NCBI RefSeq assembly: GCF_035594765.1
Contig: NC_085846.1
Span: 93,483,190 to 93,547,189 of the forward strand
From: Anolis carolinensis
Lineage: Eukaryota
Direction of reading: 5' to 3'
DNA: 64,000 bases
The notes under the pieces are model-generated. The model was not told the DNA's origin and did not search any database. It saw only the letters and a list, made by a program, of their open reading frames with translations. A program made the translations under genes and the position numbers. Positions 1-11,215 of this stretch are shown here, piece by piece. Each line of letters opens with the position of its first letter. The first letter of the stretch is position 1.

Positions 1-1151
1 GGGCAATTTTTCCATGTAAACTAATCAGATATTTGAGCCAAAATCCATGAAGTTGATCACTATCAGGCGATGTCCAGTTCTTAACTTTTTGCACTTGTTT
101 GCTGATCATTTCAGTTGTTATTTCCATCTGTTCCATTTTGTTCTGTGAGAATTTTCCTTCAAATTCCTTTATCCACCCAGCGTTTTTGTTGTAGTTCTTA
201 TTATTTTCCCAAAGCTCTTTCCAGAACTTAGTTGTTGCAGTTTACTCCGGCTTTATGGTTCTCTGGCTTTATGGCTTTATGGAATCATCCAGTATAGACA
301 AAATCAACTGTTTCAATCAGACTCTGGTAGAATCGTCTTTGGTCTGATTGAAACAGTTGATTTTGTCTATACTGGATGATTCTGGCTTCATATCTTTCAA
401 TTTTTCTGGCTGTTTCTGTAATTTGTTCTTTCACGATTTCCAAAGATTCTTCAATTTTTCTGGTGTACAGCCAGTACTTTCGGATCAGGTATTGCTTGAT
501 TTTGTCATTCTTCAGTTTCTTCTCTTTCATATTTTTCAGGTTACTTGCATCTGATTTAAGTTTTTTGATTTTCAACTCTAGCCTGACCTTCCACTTTGGT
601 TTTCCAGTTGATTTTCTTTGGGGCTGCCTTGGTTGTAGGAGCCCAAGCTCTTCTGTTACTATCTCTGCTGCACTGTAGGCATACTGGTTTGTTTGTTCAA
701 TTGATGTTATTTGGACAGTGGAGAATACTGTATTCACATCTTTCATGAGAGGCGCCAGGTGTCTCTTGGGCACTGTTGTTAGAGTTGGGAGTCGCTTTCT
801 TATTGCATTTGCTGCAGCATGAGCCATGATTTTATCCTTGAGCTCTTGTTGTCTTGCTGTCAAGGTTCCTGGTGGTTCAACAGGTGTTTCAAGTGCTGGT
901 TCTTCAAATTCTTGCAAAAGCTCCACACTTTCTTCTGGTTCAATCTGTTCCACCCTTCCAAGTGTTGCTGGAGTCTCTGCTGTTGTCTGTGCTGTGGTCT
1001 GATGGTAATTTGCTTTGCACATTTTCTGAATTTCTTCGAGTTCAATTTCACTGAACACTTTGTTTCTGATTATGAATCTTCGTTGGTCAACCAGTCGGGG
1101 TTCTGTTATCTGTGAGTCAGGGTACTCTTGTTTCCAGTTGATGCATCCTTT
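1..1151 (-). mobile_element. R4-clade (Dong/Rex6-like) non-LTR retrotransposon, ORF middle part; continues beyond window start; disrupted
   Basis: ORF 285..1238 (WKQEYPDSQITEPRLVDQRRFIIRNKVFSEIELEEI...KPKWKVRLE...KIERYEARIIQYRQNQLFQSDQRRFYQSL) has the R4/Rex6 N-terminal motifs; 1-250 on the minus strand reads into the pre-RT motif (KNWTSPDSDQLHGFWLKYL). Interrupted by a CR1 at 1152 and by a fold-back scar at 282-382. Confidence 0.8.
282..382. repeat. Perfect 41-bp inverted repeat (19-nt spacer)
   Basis: 282-322 is the exact reverse complement of 342-382. Confidence 0.95.
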
Positions 1152-2621
1152 CATAGAATCATAGAATAGTAGAGTTGGAAGAGACCACATGGGCCATCTA
1201 GTCCAACCCCCTGCTAAGAAGCAGGAAATCGCATTCAAAGCACCCCCGACAGATGGCCATCCAGCCTCTGCTTAAAAGCCTCCAAGGAAGGAGCCTCCAC
1301 CACGGCCCCGGGGAGAGAGTTCCACTGTCGAACAGCTCTCACAGTGAGGAAGTTCTTCCTGATGTTCAGGTGGAATCTCCTTTCCTGTAGTTTGAAGCCA
1401 TTGTTCCGTGTCCTAGTCTGCAGGGCAGCAGAAAACAAGCTTGCTCCCTCTTCCCTATGACTTCCCTTCACATATTTGTACATGGCTATCATGTCTCCTC
1501 TCAGCCTTCTCTTCTGCAGGCTAAACATGCCCAGCTCTTTAAGCCGCTCCTCATAGGGCTTGTTCTCCAGACCCTTAATCATTTTAGTCACCCTCCTCTG
1601 GACGCTTTCCAGCTTGTCAACATCTCCCTTCAACTGTGGTGCCCAAAATTGGACACAGTATTCCAGGTGTGGTCTGACCAAGGCAGAATAGAGGGGGAGC
1701 ATAACTTCCCTGGATCTAGACGCTATTCCCCTATTGATGCAGGCCAGAATCCCATTGGCTTTTTTAGCAGCCACATCACATTGTTGGCTCATGTTTAACT
1801 TGTTGTCCACGAGGACTCCAAGGTCTTTTTCGCACACACTGCTGTCAAGCCAGGCGTCCCCCATTCTGTATCTTTGATTTCCATTTTTTCTGCCGAAGTG
1901 AAGTATCTTGCATTTGTCCCTGTTGAACTTCATTTTGTTAATTTCGGCCCATCTCTCTAGTCTGTCAAGATCGTTTTGAATTCTGCTCCTGTCTTCTGGA
2001 GTGTTAGCTATCCCTCCCAGTTTTGTGTCGTCTGCAAACTTGATGATCGTGCCTTCTAACCCTTCGTCTAAGTCGTTAATAAAGATGTTGAACAGAACCG
2101 GGCCCAGGACGGAGCCCTGCGGCACTCCACTTGTCACTTCTTTCCATGATGAAGACGACGCATTGGTGAGCACCCTTTGGGTTCGTTCGCTTAGCCAATT
2201 ACAGATCCACCTAACCGTAGTTTTGTCTAGCCCACATTTTACTAGTTTGTTTGCCAGAAGGTCGTGGGGGACTTTGTCGAAGGCCTTACTGAAATCCAGG
2301 TACGCTACATCCACAGCATTCCCTGTATCGACCCAACTCGTAACTCTATCGAAAAAAGAGATCAGATTAGTCTGGCATGACTTGTTTTTGGTAAATCCGT
2401 GTTGACTATTAGCAATGACCGCATTTGTTTCTAAGTGTTCACAGACCACTTCCTTAATGATCTTTTCCAGAATTTTGCCTGGTATTGATGTGAGGCTGAC
2501 CGGATGGTAATTGTTTGGGTCGTTCTTTTTTACCTTCTTGAAGATAGGGACCACATTCGCCCTCCTCCAATCTGCTGGGACTTCTCCCGTTCTCCAAGAA
2601 CTCTCGAAGATAATTGCCAGT
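1152..2621 (-). mobile_element. CR1 LINE, 5'-truncated, young; RT and C-terminal part of ORF2 intact
   Basis: Uninterrupted 470-aa ORF 1235..2647 with RT motifs ([29 protein letters not shown]); CR1 3' UTR ending in (ATTCTATG)n tail at ~1152-1168; inserted inside the R4 ORF. Confidence 0.95.
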
Positions 2622-2995
2622 AGTAGCCACGCTTTTTTGGTAGCCACGCTTTTGAGGTCCAGATTTGTAATAGCATTTCATAACTGTGAGGTTTTCTGGC
2701 ATTGTATATTTCTTCCGCTTCTGTGACTGTTCATTTGTATTTTGATTCCGCAGCCCACTTGTCGATGGATGTCCAGAATCAGCAGCATCCACCGCGGTCC
2801 TTTTTATCCTGGGCGACGACCGAACCAGTATAGATTTTGTTTTGGTTTGATTCTCCATAATGCTAATGGGTTAGGTGCTCTTAGTTCCACTCCTCAGCTG
2901 AGACCTCTCTGGCTTAGTTGGACCTGCCGGTAGTTACACTACCGCCAGCACAGCTCTCAGCATCATTGGAACAGTTAAGCCCCCCCCCCCCTCCC
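2622..2995 (-). mobile_element. 5' end (5' UTR + ORF start) of the same R4-clade element
   Basis: ORF from ATG 2858 (MENQTKTKS...[28 protein letters not shown]) joins the sequence left of the CR1 (...RMHQ/WKQEY); the UTR runs to a G-run/(TG)n at ~2981-3012. Confidence 0.75.
2884..2975 (-). ncRNA. Candidate structured RNA element (kink-turn + multi-way junction) in the R4 5' UTR
   Basis: Minus strand: UUCC-AAU-GA-U-GCUGAGA ... UCUCAGC-U-GA-GGAG forms a canonical K-turn; it encloses CUGGC/GCCAG pairing and a GGUAG-UGUAA-CUACC hairpin. Folded by eye only. Confidence 0.5.
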
Positions 2996-4895
2996 ACACA
3001 CACACACACACAGTTGCTTGGCTGGTTTAGAGAAAATATGCTAAAAAGGAGAAAAAATACAGAGGTATATATGAAATAATTGAAAGTAGGTTGCCTATTA
3101 TTAACGAACCATGATACAGAAAGGTTGAAGACGGTTGCTTTTATGCACTACATTCTGCTTATTCTAAGACTCATTTTTTCAATTAGGCATCCCTTTAAAT
3201 TCTGGACAGCTTTCATCTTTTTTTCTCACCAAAATATGGACAGCTATTTCTTAACTTTCTCAAAATCTGTATGTTTTTTTTTTAAAGAAATGTTTTAAGT
3301 CTGTCTGGGTTTCACCATACTCTTTATTTTTGGTAGCAGACAACAGGCTCTATGATTCAGGTCAACAAACTGTCTTTTTGAAGCTATTAAAATTTATCTG
3401 TCATTATTCACTCGATATCCATGGACAAAATATCAGTTACATAAAATGTCAAGTAATAACATAAAATGTAGATGAGCGGAGAAGCCATATCCACAGGATA
3501 TTACAAACCTCTGAAATCTATGAGGAACTTGATAACACATGTATAAAATGATGGAATTCAGAGTTAAAATCAGATCTAAAACAGAATAACTAAAATTAGA
3601 ATTTAATCAATGTACAGATATGCTATTCAAAATGAAGGAAATGAAATTCAGGCATAATCTTTCACATGACTACTAATTATTGCCTGGTGTCCTATAGTCA
3701 AAATGCTAAGTATACTCATGGCTGCTCCCTCACTTTTTCTGACTGAAAATATTTATTTCCTTTCTATTAAAACTACGTTATGACTCTTGTACCTGCAGGA
3801 TTAGAATCCAAGGTTTCTTCTACCCACGTATGGCTTTTCTAGGAATCCTCTAGGAAGGTATCCTCTCTAGAAACTTGCTAGGTCCCTCCAGGGCAAGTCT
3901 GTTATCATAGACTTCTTTTGGAGTACCTAGCTAATTGCTAGAGATGATACTCTATCGTAAATTCTGACAAAAGTCATTCACTTAAATAGGGGTCACTATT
4001 ATCCAGTTTCTTGTTTCCATGGTAAGCTCACAAACATTATATCCAGGGTACTGGATTTTTAGTGCTCGCTCTACTGCCAACCCTCTACTGCCAACTTCAA
4101 AAGTACATACAGCTACACTTTAGAATCTCTGTTAGCATCACCTTGTTTTTCTTTATAAAAAACACATTTATTTAAATCAATTATTAAAGACAAGAACTAC
4201 AAATTTAGCAAAAGTTAAGTGTTTCACCAAAGGGCAACACTTAAGCTAAACACAGTTGCTTGGCTGGAATCATCATTATCATCATCATCATCAACAGCAT
4301 CATCATGTGTATTCATATCCTGCCCTATCTCCCCGAGGGCAATTTAGAAACTATTCAGTCATTAGCTTTTCTGGAAGTCTAAACATAGAAGATAAAACTG
4401 TTTCCTTACTCCTAAGCCACAAACCACGCTTTTGGAAACTTTATAGTTACAATCCTATCCCAATGAAAGGTTCTGTGTTTCCTAATTTATGTTTCTCATT
4501 CTGAGAAACTAATGTAGTTACAAGAATCCAAACATATAGAGTATCTAACAGCAATGGATATCTGTTCCAAAGGAGATTAAGAACTTTCAATATGACCCCC
4601 AAAGCTCCAGATTTTGGGTTTTACAATGAAGGGTACAAGAATAAAAACATTTATGACACATACACTGTGGTGAGTAGATAAAGAGTTGAGTTTGAACTAA
4701 AATACTTCTTCGGCCAGCAGGCATTTCGGGAGGTGTGAGTGGGATTTGGGGGGGGGGGGGGATGTGAGTTTTAAAGTGTATTTGGTATTTGGTATATTTT
4801 AATCTGTTTTTACCACCCTGTTACTATTTAATTGTTTTGTAACTTTTGTATAGAGCTTTTTAAACTTGATTAAGTGTGGGATTGCTAGCCGCCCT

Positions 4896-5124
4896 GAGTC
4901 CCTACAGGGAGAAAGGGGGGAGGGGGTTAAATAAAGTTAAGAATAATATTTTTAAAAAATACTTAAGTATAAGTCTTGGCACTGTGAAGTCACATGACAG
5001 CTTCCAAGGATAGAGTCCCCACAGGGAGAAAGGTCGGGTTTAAATAAAGTTAATAATAATTTTAAAAAATACTTAGGTATAAGTCTCATCACTGTGAAGT
5101 CACATAACAGCTTTCAAGGATAGA
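4896..5124. repeat. ~115-bp tandem duplication including an L2-type 3' end
   Basis: GAGTCCC...CAGGGAGAAAGG...AAATAAAGTTAA...CACTGTGAAGTCACAT...CAAGGATAGA occurs twice in tandem. Confidence 0.8.
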
Positions 5125-6064
5125 TGAGTCATCTCCCATGTGGAAACTATTTACAACATAATGCACAAGGTTGTTGCAAAGAAAAGATAACATCAGTCCC
5201 CTTGGGGAATCCCTACCTATATTCCTATTGCTGCTGGGCTTGTGTTTGCTTACTTGTTTGCTTTTTGCTGGCCTGTTAGACAAGTCAAACTTGTGGCTAT
5301 CTGCTTTGAGCCCCTTTGTGCAGATGTCAAGAGTGTACCAAGCAGCAGTAAAGGATGTCTCATATCTCCTTCCTGATCCAAAACAGGAATTGGCTCTCTT
5401 GCCTAAGCTGCTCTAGATGCTTTGGACAGGCAGCTTCTCAACAGTCGTTGAGATTATATATTAATATACATTCCATAATCCACAAACATATGAAACAGAT
5501 ACAAAGAATAAATAAGAGGACAGATAATAAGGAAGGCAAGTGGGATATCGTCTTGATAAAGATCTGAGAAGTTCCTTATACATTGTTAAACCTCAGATTA
5601 AAAGGTTTTTCTGCTTAAGGCAACAAGCATTTCCAAAACCCTGTTCTGAAAAGCTGGATAATCCATACATGTGACAGCACAAAAACCATGAATTTGAAAT
5701 AATAAACAGAATGTACATGCCTGATTTTTTACAAAGAAGAAGTATGTCCATATTATTTTTAAATCATTTGTCTTGTGGTATAATGAATGACACTAATAAA
5801 TTCAAAATAAAAAATGCTTTGAATGCAAAACTATTTGCACTGTTTTTGGATCCTTACCTTAACAATGATGCATTACAGTTTACATGCAAAACAAAATACA
5901 TTTGAACACTTGCTCATCAAAAAGAGCTGCTAAATACATTTGCTATGCTGTACATAAGTACATAACTCAGAACAATCTTAACCATATTTTGAATAAACCA
6001 TGAGGAGAGGCGAGGAAGAAATAAATTATTATTTAAAAGAAAAGAATAAAAGCACAATACTCAC

Positions 6065-6252
6065 CCTAATATTCTATTCATGCCATGCCTAGCTGCATAA
6101 TGTAATGGAGTATTATGCTGGTACGGCTCTCCATAAGAAATGTTAGGATCTAGAGATTCTTTTAGTTGAGGGTTGCTCTCATATATTTGACAGGCTAAAC
6201 TTTCGTCTCCATTTATAAGTGCTTTACGGAATTTAGTAGTTGTATTTCCCAT
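6065..6252 (-). CDS. ANKIB1: ANKIB1 first coding exon (ankyrin repeat and IBR domain-containing RBR E3 ligase); whole exon 6065..6330
   Basis: [63 protein letters not shown] matches the ANKIB1 N-terminus; acceptor tttctttcag at 6331-6340, donor GTGAGT at 6064; head-to-head with KRIT1 as in mammals. Confidence 0.95.
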
Positions 6253-9200
6253 GTTGTCATCAATGAGGTGGGGGCTTCTTCTGTTCCCCTTCAATCACTT
6301 GGTGCAAAGGCCAACAACATATTTTGCGTTCTGAAAGAAAACAAACAGTATTACAGGCTGTGTTGCTGTGGCATCTTCGTAAGTACTGATGAAAGTGAAT
6401 CCTTAAAGAAAACCGCAGCTCAAAATGAATCATTGTTCTTATTTGGAGAGAGGAAGAAATTCTTCTTCTGAAGTCTACATAGTTTGACCACTGCTCTGTT
6501 AAACTATAACATCTTTACTACATAAACATGGTAAAACAGCCTTTCCAAATATATACTTTGGACCCTAACTAGTGGAAAAACACATAAGAATAACATTTCC
6601 TTCAACCTCATCTTCCAAGACAAATTTCAAACTATAGCATTTTTAACAGTAACAAGTAAATGGAATTGAAAATTCTAGTTACACAATAACCTAAAAGACT
6701 AGGTAAAGTGCTTCAAAGTAAGATAAAGAGTTTATACCAGAGTAAAGCCTCCAGAATTTTATCATGAAAGAAGCAACATTATTTAGGACTGCTGACTTTT
6801 TTTGGATGCCACTGTAAAGAAAACCTTCAAAATAACTCACTGATTCCTAACATGGACAAATTGACAGCAGAATTTGTTCAAAGGGTGTTTTCCCTCTGAG
6901 GCTCAGAAAATGTGGCTTGCTTAGTCATCCAATGGGTTTCTGTGGCTGAGTGTCAATTCTAACCCTGGTCTCCCAATGTCCTAATTCAACAATCAAATGA
7001 TTAAAGTCATCCCTCTGTGTCCACAGATTCTTTGTCTAGACTCAACTATCCAAAACTTGAAAATAAACAAAAAATTCCAAAAGCAAATCTTGATTTTACT
7101 ATTTCATATAAAGGAGACCGTTGTATATAATGGAACTTTAGTACTCAAGGATTTGGTATCCACATGGAAGGTGTTGGAACCAAACTCCAACATATACTGA
7201 GGGCCCACTATGCACCATACCGACTCTCATCTAGTCCATTATTGAGTTTAAACTAACATTTCTAGAGCATCAATTGAACTAGATGAAAACAGAAATAGAG
7301 TTGGGTATAATCAGTATACTGATGACATTACATCGACTGCCAATTAGTTCTTCAGCTGTCCCATACAGATACTAAAAGGACAGGTGAAACAAAGGAGAAA
7401 CTGACACCAGACCACAGAATAACTATCATGGGGTATACCAATTGCTCTCAGGACTATCCTCTGTAAATGGCCATCTAGACAGACAGGTAAAGTCATTAGT
7501 TGATAGGTGATCACTCGAAGAACCAGTTATAACCTGTTCTTCTTTGTGATTGCTGTGATTTATATAAATGGGAGAACTAGTAAGCTACTAACCATAAGAA
7601 AAGGGGGTGTTATGCCACACAGGAAAAAAATGCTACTTTCTCAAATAAAATATGTTTGAGACCCAGTATCCAGTCTATAGTGACAAATGAATATTTGAAA
7701 CAATAAAGCAGTCTTACAGATATCTTGCAGAAGTATACCTCTCAGAAAAGCCTCCAGTGCTACTAGAGCATTAGAGAATGCTATGTTCTCGTTTCAATAG
7801 GAGACTGCTTGCCAGCAAATTTATATGCCAGGTGAAAAGTCACTGCAATGTATTTGGATTGTTTCTGCAATGACACAGGAAGTCCTTTCTTGGTGGATGA
7901 ATAATACACATATGATCATGAGTTCCAAAAGGAATCTGTACTATAAACATAGAAAGTTCAGCTGAATACTGACCACACAACTGCCCTGGAGGACCTAAAC
8001 ATTCCTAGAGAGGTATTTTCTCTGGATATTCTTTGGGCCTCCAGCATGACTATGGTCAACACAATTATAGACTTCCGCTGGGGGACCTAGACATTTGTAG
8101 AGAAGGCCTTTTAATCAAATTCACAAAAAATTGCATCTGCAACACTCAGTCCACAAATTTGAAGAGTTAGTTGTATTTCAACAACTATATAATATTATTA
8201 TGGAACTACCCTCACCTCTTGCCCAGATCAGGACAATGAAACACCACACCACTTTCATCATTTTTTCTATGTTTTTTTTCCTGCACATCAGTATTTGAAC
8301 AGTTCTACTTCAGTATATTGTTCTTTAAACTTTGAATATTTATTTTTATTTACTCTTTCAACTTTTCCTGAACCCTGTTGTGTCTATGGACATTCATCCT
8401 TAATAGCAGTTCTGTGGTATTGCGCTACTCCCCTTATTTTTAAAAAATGAAGTAATATAAACAAAAAACTGGAAATTGTAGTACTAATGCACAATGGTCT
8501 TTATTGGAATTATTGGGAAATCCAGAGTTCTCCCAACCCAAACACCAGCAGTAGTCTGGAGTCTCCCTGCTGGTGACTGCTTGAAATCCCCAACAGAGGA
8601 ACAATAAGACTGCATTAGTTGTGCTTCCAATATCACAACGATGCAGAGAAAGATACTTACATCCTAAGTGGCTACCAAACCATAGTGAGATAGGGGAGTG
8701 ATTAACAGATTTCAAGAGGGAAAGAATCCATTTCCAAAAGACCCAACAGCCAGGATGTATAAGTTTTAGACAAAAACAAGGCTAACACCGTGCAAAAACT
8801 CCTAAGAGAAGGGGAGTGGGGTGGGAAAAGATGAGAATGGAATCCTACAAAGTAAGGAAAAGAGATCATTAGAAACTTCTGCACATAAACAGGGAAAGCA
8901 TTGCTTGGATAAAGGCTTGAGCCAGATATTGCCATTCATATTCTCAGCAGTGATATAAATCAAAACAGACAATGGCAATGCTTATCAGACACTAGCAAAG
9001 CTGTCTGGCCTAGTGAAAACATGCAGTATCTACAGACTGGTTGAGTTGGCTAAGCTGTAAATGTAAAGGTTCCAACTCAATCCACTAAACTATGTATTCT
9101 TACAAGACCAAGTAATTCATATAAGCACAGCTATCATCTGATTATCAGATAGAGCCAGGCTTTAATATAGAGTTTGTAAAGCAGATTTGAAGTATATTGC

Positions 9201-10006: not shown

Positions 10007-11215
10007 TAATAATAACAATAATAATAAAATTAAACTTTATTTATACCCCGCCACCATCTCCCTGCAGGGACTCGGGGCGGCTTACATGGGACAAAAGCCC
10101 GAACAACATAAGTGAACAAAATAAACAACAACATAAATACAATAAACAGTATAAAAAGATAAAAACAGTAATACAATGTAAAACGAGATTATAGTAACAG
10201 TTAATAATATCAGTCAACCACCAAGCACAGTTCTATCATCTACATAGGTGGAGAAACTGAAGCAGCAATGCAAGAATAAAATGATGGATTAAAGTGCATA
10301 GATGATAAGGACCTAATAAAATACAAGATAGAATTATAATACCATCTGGGGCTGATTATCTAATGACTGTCTCACTAAAGGCCAACCAAAACATCCAAAT
10401 CTTTAGTTGTTTTCTGAAGGAGGATAAAGAGGGAGCTAACCTAATTTCCCTGGGTAGGGAGTTCCAGAGTCAGGGGGTCATGGCCAAGAAGGCCCTCTCT
10501 CTCGTCCCCACCAGACGTATCTGTGAGGAAGATGGAAGCAAGAGGACGGCCTCCCCGAGAGATCGCATAGGTTCATAGGGGACTATGTGGTCACGAAGAT
10601 GGGCAGGTCCCAAACCATTTAGAGCTTTATAGGTGATAACCCGCACCTTGAATTGGGCCTGGGATGTTATCGGTAGCCAGTGGAGCTGCTTAAACAGGGG
10701 GATTGACCGCTCCCTACAACCAGCTCCGGTTAATAACCTAGCTGCCGACCATTGTACCAACTGCAATTTCCGGACCGTCTTCAAGGGCAGTCCCACATAG
10801 AGTGCATTACAGTATTCCATCCTTGAGGTAACTAGAGCATGGACCACCATGGTCAAGTCAGACTTCTTGAGATACACTCGCAGTTGGCGCACTAGCTTTA
10901 GTTGTGCAAAGGCCCTCCCGGCCACCGCCGACACCTGAGCATCAAGTGACAGCCATGAATCCAGAAGGACCCCCAAGCTGCAGACCTGTGCCTTCAGGGG
11001 GAGTGTGACCCCATCAAGCACAGGTAGCCACCCTATACCTCGATCGGTCGAACAACTGACCTGGAGGACCTCTGTCTTATCAGGATTAAGCTTCAGCTTA
11101 TTGGCCCTTATCCAACCCATTACAGTGGCCAGACACTGGTCTAGATCCAAGGGGCTTCCTTGGAGGTAGGTGGAAAGGAGTAGTAGAGTTGAGTGTCATC
11201 TGCATAGAGATGGCA
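10007..11215 (-). mobile_element. L2 LINE, 5'-truncated
   Basis: ORF 10470..11150 (WIRANKLKLNPDKTE...LHWLPI) is the L2 RT C-terminus, preceded by a YADD-encoding segment; L2 3' end (GCCGCCCCGAGTCCC...AATAAA + TTA tail) at ~10007-10086. Confidence 0.9.

What the first reader, a model, noticed from the sequence alone, without database searches (positions are those of the whole stretch)
2884..2980. Kink-turn-containing structured RNA at the 5' end of an R4-clade retrotransposon (candidate ribozyme or RNP module)
Seen: the minus strand, about 25-120 nt upstream of the ORF AUG (2858), reads GCUUAACUG UUCC AAU GA U GCUGAGA GCUGUG CUGGC GGUAG UGUAA CUACC GGCAGGUCCAACUAA GCCAG AGAGG UCUCAGC U GA GGAG UGGAAC. 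UUCC/GGAG, a 3-nt AAU bulge, tandem G.A/A.G pairs, a U.U pair and a 7-bp helix (GCUGAGA/UCUCAGC) form a box C/D-style K-turn (AUGAUG...CUGA). It closes a compact junction with CUGGC/GCCAG, a 5-bp hairpin and possible UGC/GCA tertiary pairing. Known: K-turns bind L7Ae-family proteins (SNU13/15.5K), and many non-LTR elements carry 5' self-cleaving ribozymes (HDV-like in R2/R4/RTE, twister in some RTEs). This motif fits neither fold. From memory, similar GAGCUAUGC...CAGG..CAC.CA....AGGUC strings occur in RTE-clade 5' UTRs (BovB, Expander/Rex3); this is unverified. Inference: a possibly cross-clade RNA module for 5'-end processing, SNU13-dependent capping/trafficking or translation initiation.
Basis: partly seen in the sequence, partly recalled or inferred. 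Interest (0 to 1): 0.8.

Follow-up and report, generated by a model that had tools for sequence, protein, structure and literature searches.

The report
Delta-type ribozyme with kink-turn arm
The kinked RNA structure is one arm of a larger hepatitis-delta-type fold at the exact front end of thousands of jumping-gene copies from two distant retrotransposon groups, where it likely cuts the element's RNA free, although the copy in this window has lost the front half of the fold.

Summary
The K-turn is real, but it is not a stand-alone motif. It is the enlarged P4 arm of an HDV-like double pseudoknot. The window copy has lost P1a/P2a/P3/L3 to a (TG)n/G run, which hid the fold.

Intact copies in this genome (an R4/Dong-like LINE, two RTE families) and RTE families among 87 metagenome loci show covarying P1, P2, P1.1 and K-turn stems. 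The catalytic-position C is present in 76 of 81 loci. Element 5' ends fall on P1 position 1 (20 of 30 R4 copies).

Atypical features: pyrimidine1-G37 instead of G1, purine22-pyrimidine38 in P1.1, and a K-turn in all nine families parsed, while the distal junction varies. The box C/D sequence is not conserved, so SNU13 specificity is unsupported.

HDV-like ribozymes in R4/Dong and RTE are known. This build has no Rfam match and was not found in ten paper searches, but Ruminski 2011 could not be read. Cleavage is inferred, not tested. The scan holds two other HDV-like variants and no look-alike of this sequence. Verdict: new variant of a known kind.

The parts
2995..3012 (-). (TG)n run lying where intact copies carry P1a, J1/2, P2a, P3 and L3; the window copy has lost this half of the fold
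2980..2986 (-). P1 3' strand (7 G, part of an expanded G run); G2980 is position 37
2978..2979 (-). P1.1 3' strand: C2979 (position 38; pairs with L3 G22 in intact copies) and U2978
2889..2972 (-). Enlarged P4 arm: K-turn C-stem 2972-2968/2893-2889, bulge 2967-2965, G.A/A.G, U.U, NC helix 2961-2955/2903-2897
2904..2954 (-). Distal P4 domain: helix with a G.G mismatch and a bulged G, side hairpin 2943-2929, GGCA linker 2928-2925, 3-bp triloop hairpin 2924-2916
2881..2888 (-). J4/2; C2884 is the predicted catalytic C (C75 equivalent), followed by U-A-A
2873..2880 (-). P2 3' strand: G2880 (position 79), bulged A2879, 2878-2873; its partner is absent in this copy
2632..2858 (-). Start of the R4/Dong-like ORF (AUG at 2858)
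1152..2631 (-). About 1.5-kb insertion of another LINE's RT-encoding 3' part (CR1-like; label recalled) that splits the R4 ORF
1..1151 (-). Continuation of the decayed R4 ORF; the element runs about 2.2 kb beyond the window's left edge

Best explanation
The K-turn stem is the P4 arm of an HDV-like nested double pseudoknot at the exact 5' end of an R4/Dong-like LINE and of many RTE LINEs, and this fold likely self-cleaves to release the element RNA from read-through transcripts. Shown: the covarying P1, P2, P1.1 and K-turn stems, the conserved C-N-A-A in J4/2, 5' junctions at P1 position 1, and loss of the 5' half in the window copy. Inferred: C75-dependent cleavage 5' of a C1-G37 pair; the cleaved fold then likely protects the uncapped end and may aid translation (AUG 14 nt after P2). 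Inferred with less confidence: the K-turn is architectural and bends P4 so that its distal domain packs back against the core (about 0.5). Alternatives for the K-turn are a host L7Ae-family binding site (about 0.35) or neutral (about 0.15). The window copy is predicted to be inactive.
For: Features not in the search pattern: P3/L3 motif in 60 of 74 metagenome loci vs 58 of 1512 flank windows; C at position 75 in 76 of 81, G37 in 81 of 83, U20 in 81 of 84. RNAalifold, unguided, recovers P2, P3 and the K-turn C-stem. One copy per family, 9 families, against 20000 family swaps: P1 55 of 63 Watson-Crick pairs (swap mean 40.1; 0 reach it), P2 44 of 54 (21.9; 2), pair 16-79 9 of 9 as C-G, U-A or A-U (3.9; 37), P1.1 9 of 9 as G-C or A-U (5.0; 233), C-stem 40 of 45 (26.0; 0). 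5' junction: 20 of 30 young R4 copies begin with exactly the 7-nt P1a after a non-C base (A 8, U 12, G 0); 21 of 24 copies of an RTE family with varied flanks match at least 6 of 7 P1a bases. Dong self-cleavage was confirmed in vitro, and R4, Dong and RTE cleave at their 5' ends (PMC3774820 passages).
Against: No cleavage test. Position 1 is C in 7 of 9 families and never G paired with U or C, whereas the cleavage site is labelled G1 in known members (PMC10879173 passage); a lower rate for pyrimidine1 is recalled, and the paper was not held. P1.1 polarity is inverted relative to HDV/CPEB3 (recalled). A single origin of the A-U P1.1 variant is not rejected (p-AU 0.09). P3 covariation is not significant at family level (2173 of 20000). 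I chose the P1 offsets by best pairing, and P1 is poor in some family-A copies and in L086. No Rfam HDV-like model matches.
Confidence: 0.78

Rival explanations
1. The fold is HDV-derived but no longer catalytic, or only weakly so. It serves as a cap-like shield or a protein-binding platform, and the precise 5' end comes from transcription starting at the C run.
For: Atypical pyrimidine1-G37 pair. The HDV fold is proposed to stabilise R2 RNA as a cap substitute (PMC11331408 passages). A C-rich start resembles TOP-type starts (recalled).
Against: C75-N-A-A, U20 and G25 are kept. P1a covaries with P1b and includes purines. No extra G at the 5' junctions (0 of 20 and 4 of 24), which a reverse-transcribed cap would be expected to leave (recalled).
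Confidence: 0.13
2. One reading: the K-turn plus junction is an autonomous module, either a new ribozyme class or an SNU13-dependent capping or trafficking signal.
For: The distal domain is well conserved between the R4 family and RTE families A-G. The K-turn is present in all 9 families parsed. The window family has a box C/D-like sequence.
Against: In the full-length loci examined the module sits between P1.1 and J4/2 of the HDV fold. Distal conservation in the metagenome set is partly built in by my pattern. Two RTE families in G000 keep the HDV core and the K-turn but lack or replace the distal parts. The box C/D letters are not conserved. Element ends lie about 45 nt upstream of the K-turn.
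Confidence: 0.07
3. There is no selected structure; the pairings are chance or shared ancestry.
For: Single-sequence z-score is only -1.39; related sequences inflate shuffle tests.
Against: Several pair types per position in P1, P2 and the C-stem across families that are only 48-68% identical to the R4 copy.
Confidence: 0.02

Closest known systems
HDV-like ribozymes at the 5' ends of non-LTR retrotransposons (R2, R4, Dong, RTE/drz-Agam-2, L1Tc)
   Same: Helix order P1-P2-P3-P1.1-P4, 7-bp P1, 7-nt L3 with U20 and G25, C in J4/2, and cleavage site predicted at the element's 5' end (PMC3774820, PMC4908430 passages).
   Different: Pyrimidine1-G37 and purine22-pyrimidine38 pairs; a 76-96 nt P4 region with a conserved K-turn, whereas P4 is highly variable in R2; short J1/2, whereas the large drz-Agam-2 insert is in J1/2. 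The B. mori Dong junction primer starts the element with G. No Rfam match.
K-turns: box C/D, U4, Kt-7, Kt-23
   Same: 3-nt bulge, G.A then A.G, flanking helices. Family variants include U.U, A.G and the A.U 2b.2n type described for Kt-23 (PMC2790904 abstract).
   Different: Embedded in a ribozyme P4. The 3b.3n pair is not fixed: some types are predicted to fold in ions alone (A.G, C.A) and others not (U-A, C-G, G.U), by the rules in PMC4382518 (passages).
Twister T-variants of Perere-3 (RTE)
   Same: Self-cleaving motif at an RTE 5' end (PMC8501958 passages).
   Different: Different fold; no Rfam twister match; no conserved U-A cleavage loop or twister P4/L4.
Conserved RTE 5'-UTR domain of Kojima 2018 (Ceph-domain 3' half; also in Ingi-3_AC and R4-1_ADi)
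   Same: RTE 5'-UTR sequence shared with an R4 element, so cross-clade sharing has a precedent.
   Different: That domain lies in the middle of the UTR, not at the 5' end, and no structure is given in the parts read.

Membership tests
HDV-like ribozyme | Nested double pseudoknot P1, P2, P3, P1.1, P4 in the right order | tested here: met
   Intact family copies. Absent in the window copy itself.
HDV-like ribozyme | L3 with U20 and G25 (reverse wobble) | tested here: met
   U 81 of 84; G 66 of 81, A 11; feature from PMC3774820 passage.
HDV-like ribozyme | Catalytic C in J4/2 | tested here: met
   C 76 of 81, followed by N-A-A; C in 9 of 9 family representatives, where the parse required it.
HDV-like ribozyme | Element 5' end at the first nucleotide of P1 | tested here: met
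   20 of 30 R4 copies; 21 of 24 RTE copies.
HDV-like ribozyme | G (purine) at position 1, paired with U or C37 (typical of known members) | tested here: not met
   C1 in 7 of 9 families, G37 in 9 of 9 and 81 of 83 loci; hence filed as a variant, not a plain member.
HDV-like ribozyme | P1.1 as pyrimidine22-purine38 (polarity recalled) | tested here: not met
   The pair exists but is G-C (52) or A-U (4) of 60 loci.
HDV-like ribozyme | Mg2+-dependent self-cleavage lost on C75U | not testable with these tools
   Needs a bench assay.
K-turn | 3-nt bulge, G.A and A.G (or A.U) pairs between two helices | tested here: met
   1b G 76 of 84, 2b A 83 of 84, 1n A 77 of 81, 2n G 72 or U 10 of 83; C-stem 5 of 5 pairs covary.
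Box C/D K-turn | Box C and box D letters with U.U at 3b.3n conserved | tested here: not met
   U.U in 3 of 9 families; box-like only in the window family.
K-turn | Binding of L7Ae/SNU13 | not testable with these tools
   Needs gel shift or FRET.
Twister / T-variant | Twister core with two pseudoknots and a U-A cleavage loop | tested here: not met
   No Rfam hit; candidate positions vary in alignment A1; core features recalled.
R4/Dong clade (host element) | Single ORF with RT, C-terminal zinc knuckle and restriction-like endonuclease, no APE; (TAA)n target | tested here: met
   1137-aa ORF in L163; RVT_1 and no Exo_endo_phos; best PDB hits are R2 proteins; TAA repeat upstream of 21 of 30 copies. 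CCHC and PD..D motifs read by eye.
R4/Dong clade (host element) | Placement in an RT phylogeny with named R4 elements | not tested
   No named reference sequences were fetched.

The most novel reading that the evidence does not exclude
An undescribed, widespread subclass of delta-type ribozymes that cleaves before a pyrimidine (C1-G37), carries an obligatory kink-turn arm through which a host L7Ae-family protein or a docking distal domain switches cleavage on, and has moved as a 5' module between RTE (APE) and R4 (RLE) retrotransposons.
Probability: 0.2. Interest if true: 0.85.

Novelty: new variant of a known kind. Interest (0 to 1): 0.6.

Why it matters
If it cleaves, it widens the HDV-like class in two ways. 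Searches built on G1, a C-G P1.1 and a short P4 would miss it, yet the queries for three such families in this one genome drew about 2000, 2700 and 1800 candidates. A conserved K-turn inside a small self-cleaving ribozyme offers a testable route for host-protein control of retrotransposon RNA processing. It may explain why bipartite RTE elements keep their 5' ends while RTE-derived SINE bodies do not (question raised in PMC5786205). It may also bear on the design of RTE-based gene-insertion templates (PMC13708176 passages); whether those elements carry this fold was not tested.

Tried and rejected
Rfam: no relevant hit on window 1-8000 (E<=10) or on 11 loci with intact or near-intact modules (E<=1). 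Viral contigs: 0 pattern hits and no R4 relative, so no second R4 5' end could be compared and the direction of any swap is untested. Prokaryote genomes: 2 hits; L130 is a chance match (no model hit) and L131 is an RTE fragment in a MAG. Twister, pistol and hammerhead readings were rejected by eye from recalled consensus features and by the absence of Rfam hits. An 8-bp P1 with a target-derived G1 was rejected: the base before P1a is not G-biased, and the P1.1 covariation fixes the 7-bp register. RNA evidence: no RNA holder listed; all 24 runs are contigs. A tree of the RNA module is mostly unresolved (4 of 17 branches supported). Papers not held: Ruminski 2011, Webb 2009, Cerrone-Szakal 2008. 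Family C was dropped because its representative did not parse.

Full report
Observation. The quoted sequence and K-turn pairs are in the window as stated. Folded alone, the stretch is unremarkable (z -1.39), and Rfam gives nothing there. The case rests on comparison.

Host element. The window lies in G000 (1.85 Gb, 211 contigs). The 5' region drew 2004 candidates, of which 40 were scored and 30 fetched; all 30 carry the motif. A full copy (L163) has one 1137-aa ORF with RT, no APE domain, a C-terminal CCHC and PD..D motif read by eye, and R2 proteins as best solved relatives. Twenty-one of 30 young copies follow a TAA repeat. This fits an R4/Dong-like element; no RT tree with named elements was made. 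About 30 of 150 scored copies have an open frame of 1130 aa or more (counted by eye), so the family is young. The window copy is decayed: a 1.5-kb LINE fragment splits its ORF at 1152-2631.

Other copies extend about 30 nt further 5' than the window copy, which has a (TG)n/G run there and no replacement partner within 400 nt upstream. An exact pattern for the intact front half gave 400 matches (209+191, possibly a ceiling; control 0). This is the HDV-like nested double pseudoknot (helix order from PMC4908430, first quarter read; numbering recalled).

Other families. Of 56 loci with at least 500 nt downstream, 20 have an APE-type ORF start within 900 nt and none has the R4 N-terminus (Pfam on three). 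The rest are non-coding or decayed. Core features outside the pattern came along: P3/L3 in 60 of 74 loci with enough flank vs 58 of 1512 control windows, and C75 in 76 of 81. G000 itself holds two more RTE families and an old family with no ORF hit. The two RTE families keep the core and the K-turn, but one lacks the side hairpin and the other replaces the distal domain. The K-turn is therefore the constant part of P4, and the strong distal conservation in the metagenome set is partly an effect of my pattern.

Covariation. On 24 of 94 parsed loci, chosen for diversity, 94.4% of cells pair, 25 of 39 pairs change on both sides, 0 of 500 shuffles match, and slid controls reach 31.5-46.9%. All 8 P2 pairs and all 5 K-turn C-stem pairs covary. 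MAFFT misplaces P2b of L122, and relatedness inflates such tests. RNAalifold finds P2, P3 and the P4 stems unguided. With one copy per family (9 of 10 parsed), P1, P2, pair 16-79, P1.1 and the C-stem beat family swaps and P3 does not; the P1 offsets were picked by best pairing. The A-U form of P1.1 occurs in three families, but one origin is not rejected (p-AU 0.09).

5' ends. Twenty of 30 young R4 copies start with exactly the 7-nt P1a, preceded by A or U and never G. In an RTE family with varied flanks, 21 of 24 copies match at least 6 of 7 P1a bases, preceded by A 8, U 8, C 4, G 4. Two unrelated elements thus end where an HDV-like ribozyme would cut. This is the main indirect evidence for cleavage.

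Departures. Position 1 is a pyrimidine paired with G37, and P1.1 is purine22-pyrimidine38. Known members are labelled G1 (PMC10879173 passages); the usual C-G P1.1 is recalled. P4 in R2 ribozymes is highly variable (PMC3774820 section 16), whereas here it has a K-turn in every family parsed. The 3b.3n pair is U.U in 3, C-G in 2, and A.G, U-A, G.U and C.A in 1 each of 9 families; 3 have U at 2n, like Kt-23 (PMC2790904 abstract). By the rules in PMC4382518 (passages) some would fold in ions alone and some would not. This argues for a generic K-turn held by tertiary context or protein, and against a fixed box C/D signal.

Mechanism. Shown: structure, conservation and end position. Inferred: read-through transcripts self-cleave before C1, giving a uniform uncapped 5' end that the fold protects. 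L162 sits directly behind the 3' tail of another copy, which would give such transcripts. More weakly inferred: the kink folds the distal arm back on the P4-P1.1-P1 stack and may offset the atypical first pair. The R4 module is 48-68% identical to those of the RTE-type families, while the B. mori Dong primer begins with G. A 5'-module swap from RTE to this R4 lineage is plausible but untested, since no other R4 5' end was obtained.

Prior knowledge. HDV-like ribozymes in R4, Dong and RTE are published (PMC3774820 passages and sections 16 and 18; PMC5786205 parts 2-3; PMC6765202, PMC7761336, PMC13708176, PMC11331408 and PMC8501958 passages). Ten full-text searches listed no paper whose title or abstract describes a K-turn in such a ribozyme or this polarity; the few papers holding both terms were seen only as listings. 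Ruminski 2011, the paper most likely to show RTE structures, was not held, and supplements were not read, so prior description is not excluded. Rfam has no match to intact copies. Earlier scan notes list two different HDV-like variants and no look-alike of this sequence.

Verdict. A real feature and a new variant of a known kind; likely catalytic in intact copies and inactive in this one. Interest 0.6.

Noticed in passing
L063:855-935, L067, L077, L122 and others, directly after P2b: 67 of 74 metagenome loci carry a second conserved element after the ribozyme. It has a short hairpin and a covarying stem-loop whose loop could pair upstream as a pseudoknot, just before the ORF. It is absent from the R4 family, L086 and L104. 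Candidate translation-initiation element.
   Followed up: partly
L165-L179 (G000): An old family with no ORF hit (55 candidates) carries the same fold. L3 position 22 is U; P1.1 would be U-A if P1 is 6 bp, but the register is ambiguous.
   Followed up: partly
L195-L219 (G000): An RTE family (2705 candidates) keeps the core and an A.G-type K-turn but has a different distal P4. Only 2 of 25 loci show an APE hit, so many copies may be internally deleted.
   Followed up: partly
L220-L244 (G000): An RTE family (1813 candidates; BovB-like by recall) keeps the core, the K-turn and the triloop hairpin but lacks the side hairpin.
   Followed up: partly
window 1152-2631: A CR1-like RT fragment (label recalled) is inserted in the same orientation into the R4 ORF.
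   Followed up: partly
L162:2-168 and L163: R4 copies sit directly behind the 3' tail and TAA repeat of another copy of the same element.
   Followed up: no
L131: An RTE fragment with the full module lies in a bacterial MAG contig, probably mis-binned eukaryotic DNA.
   Followed up: no
window 10470-11195, minus strand: A 241-aa open frame with a weak RVT_1 match, a remnant of another LINE.
   Followed up: no
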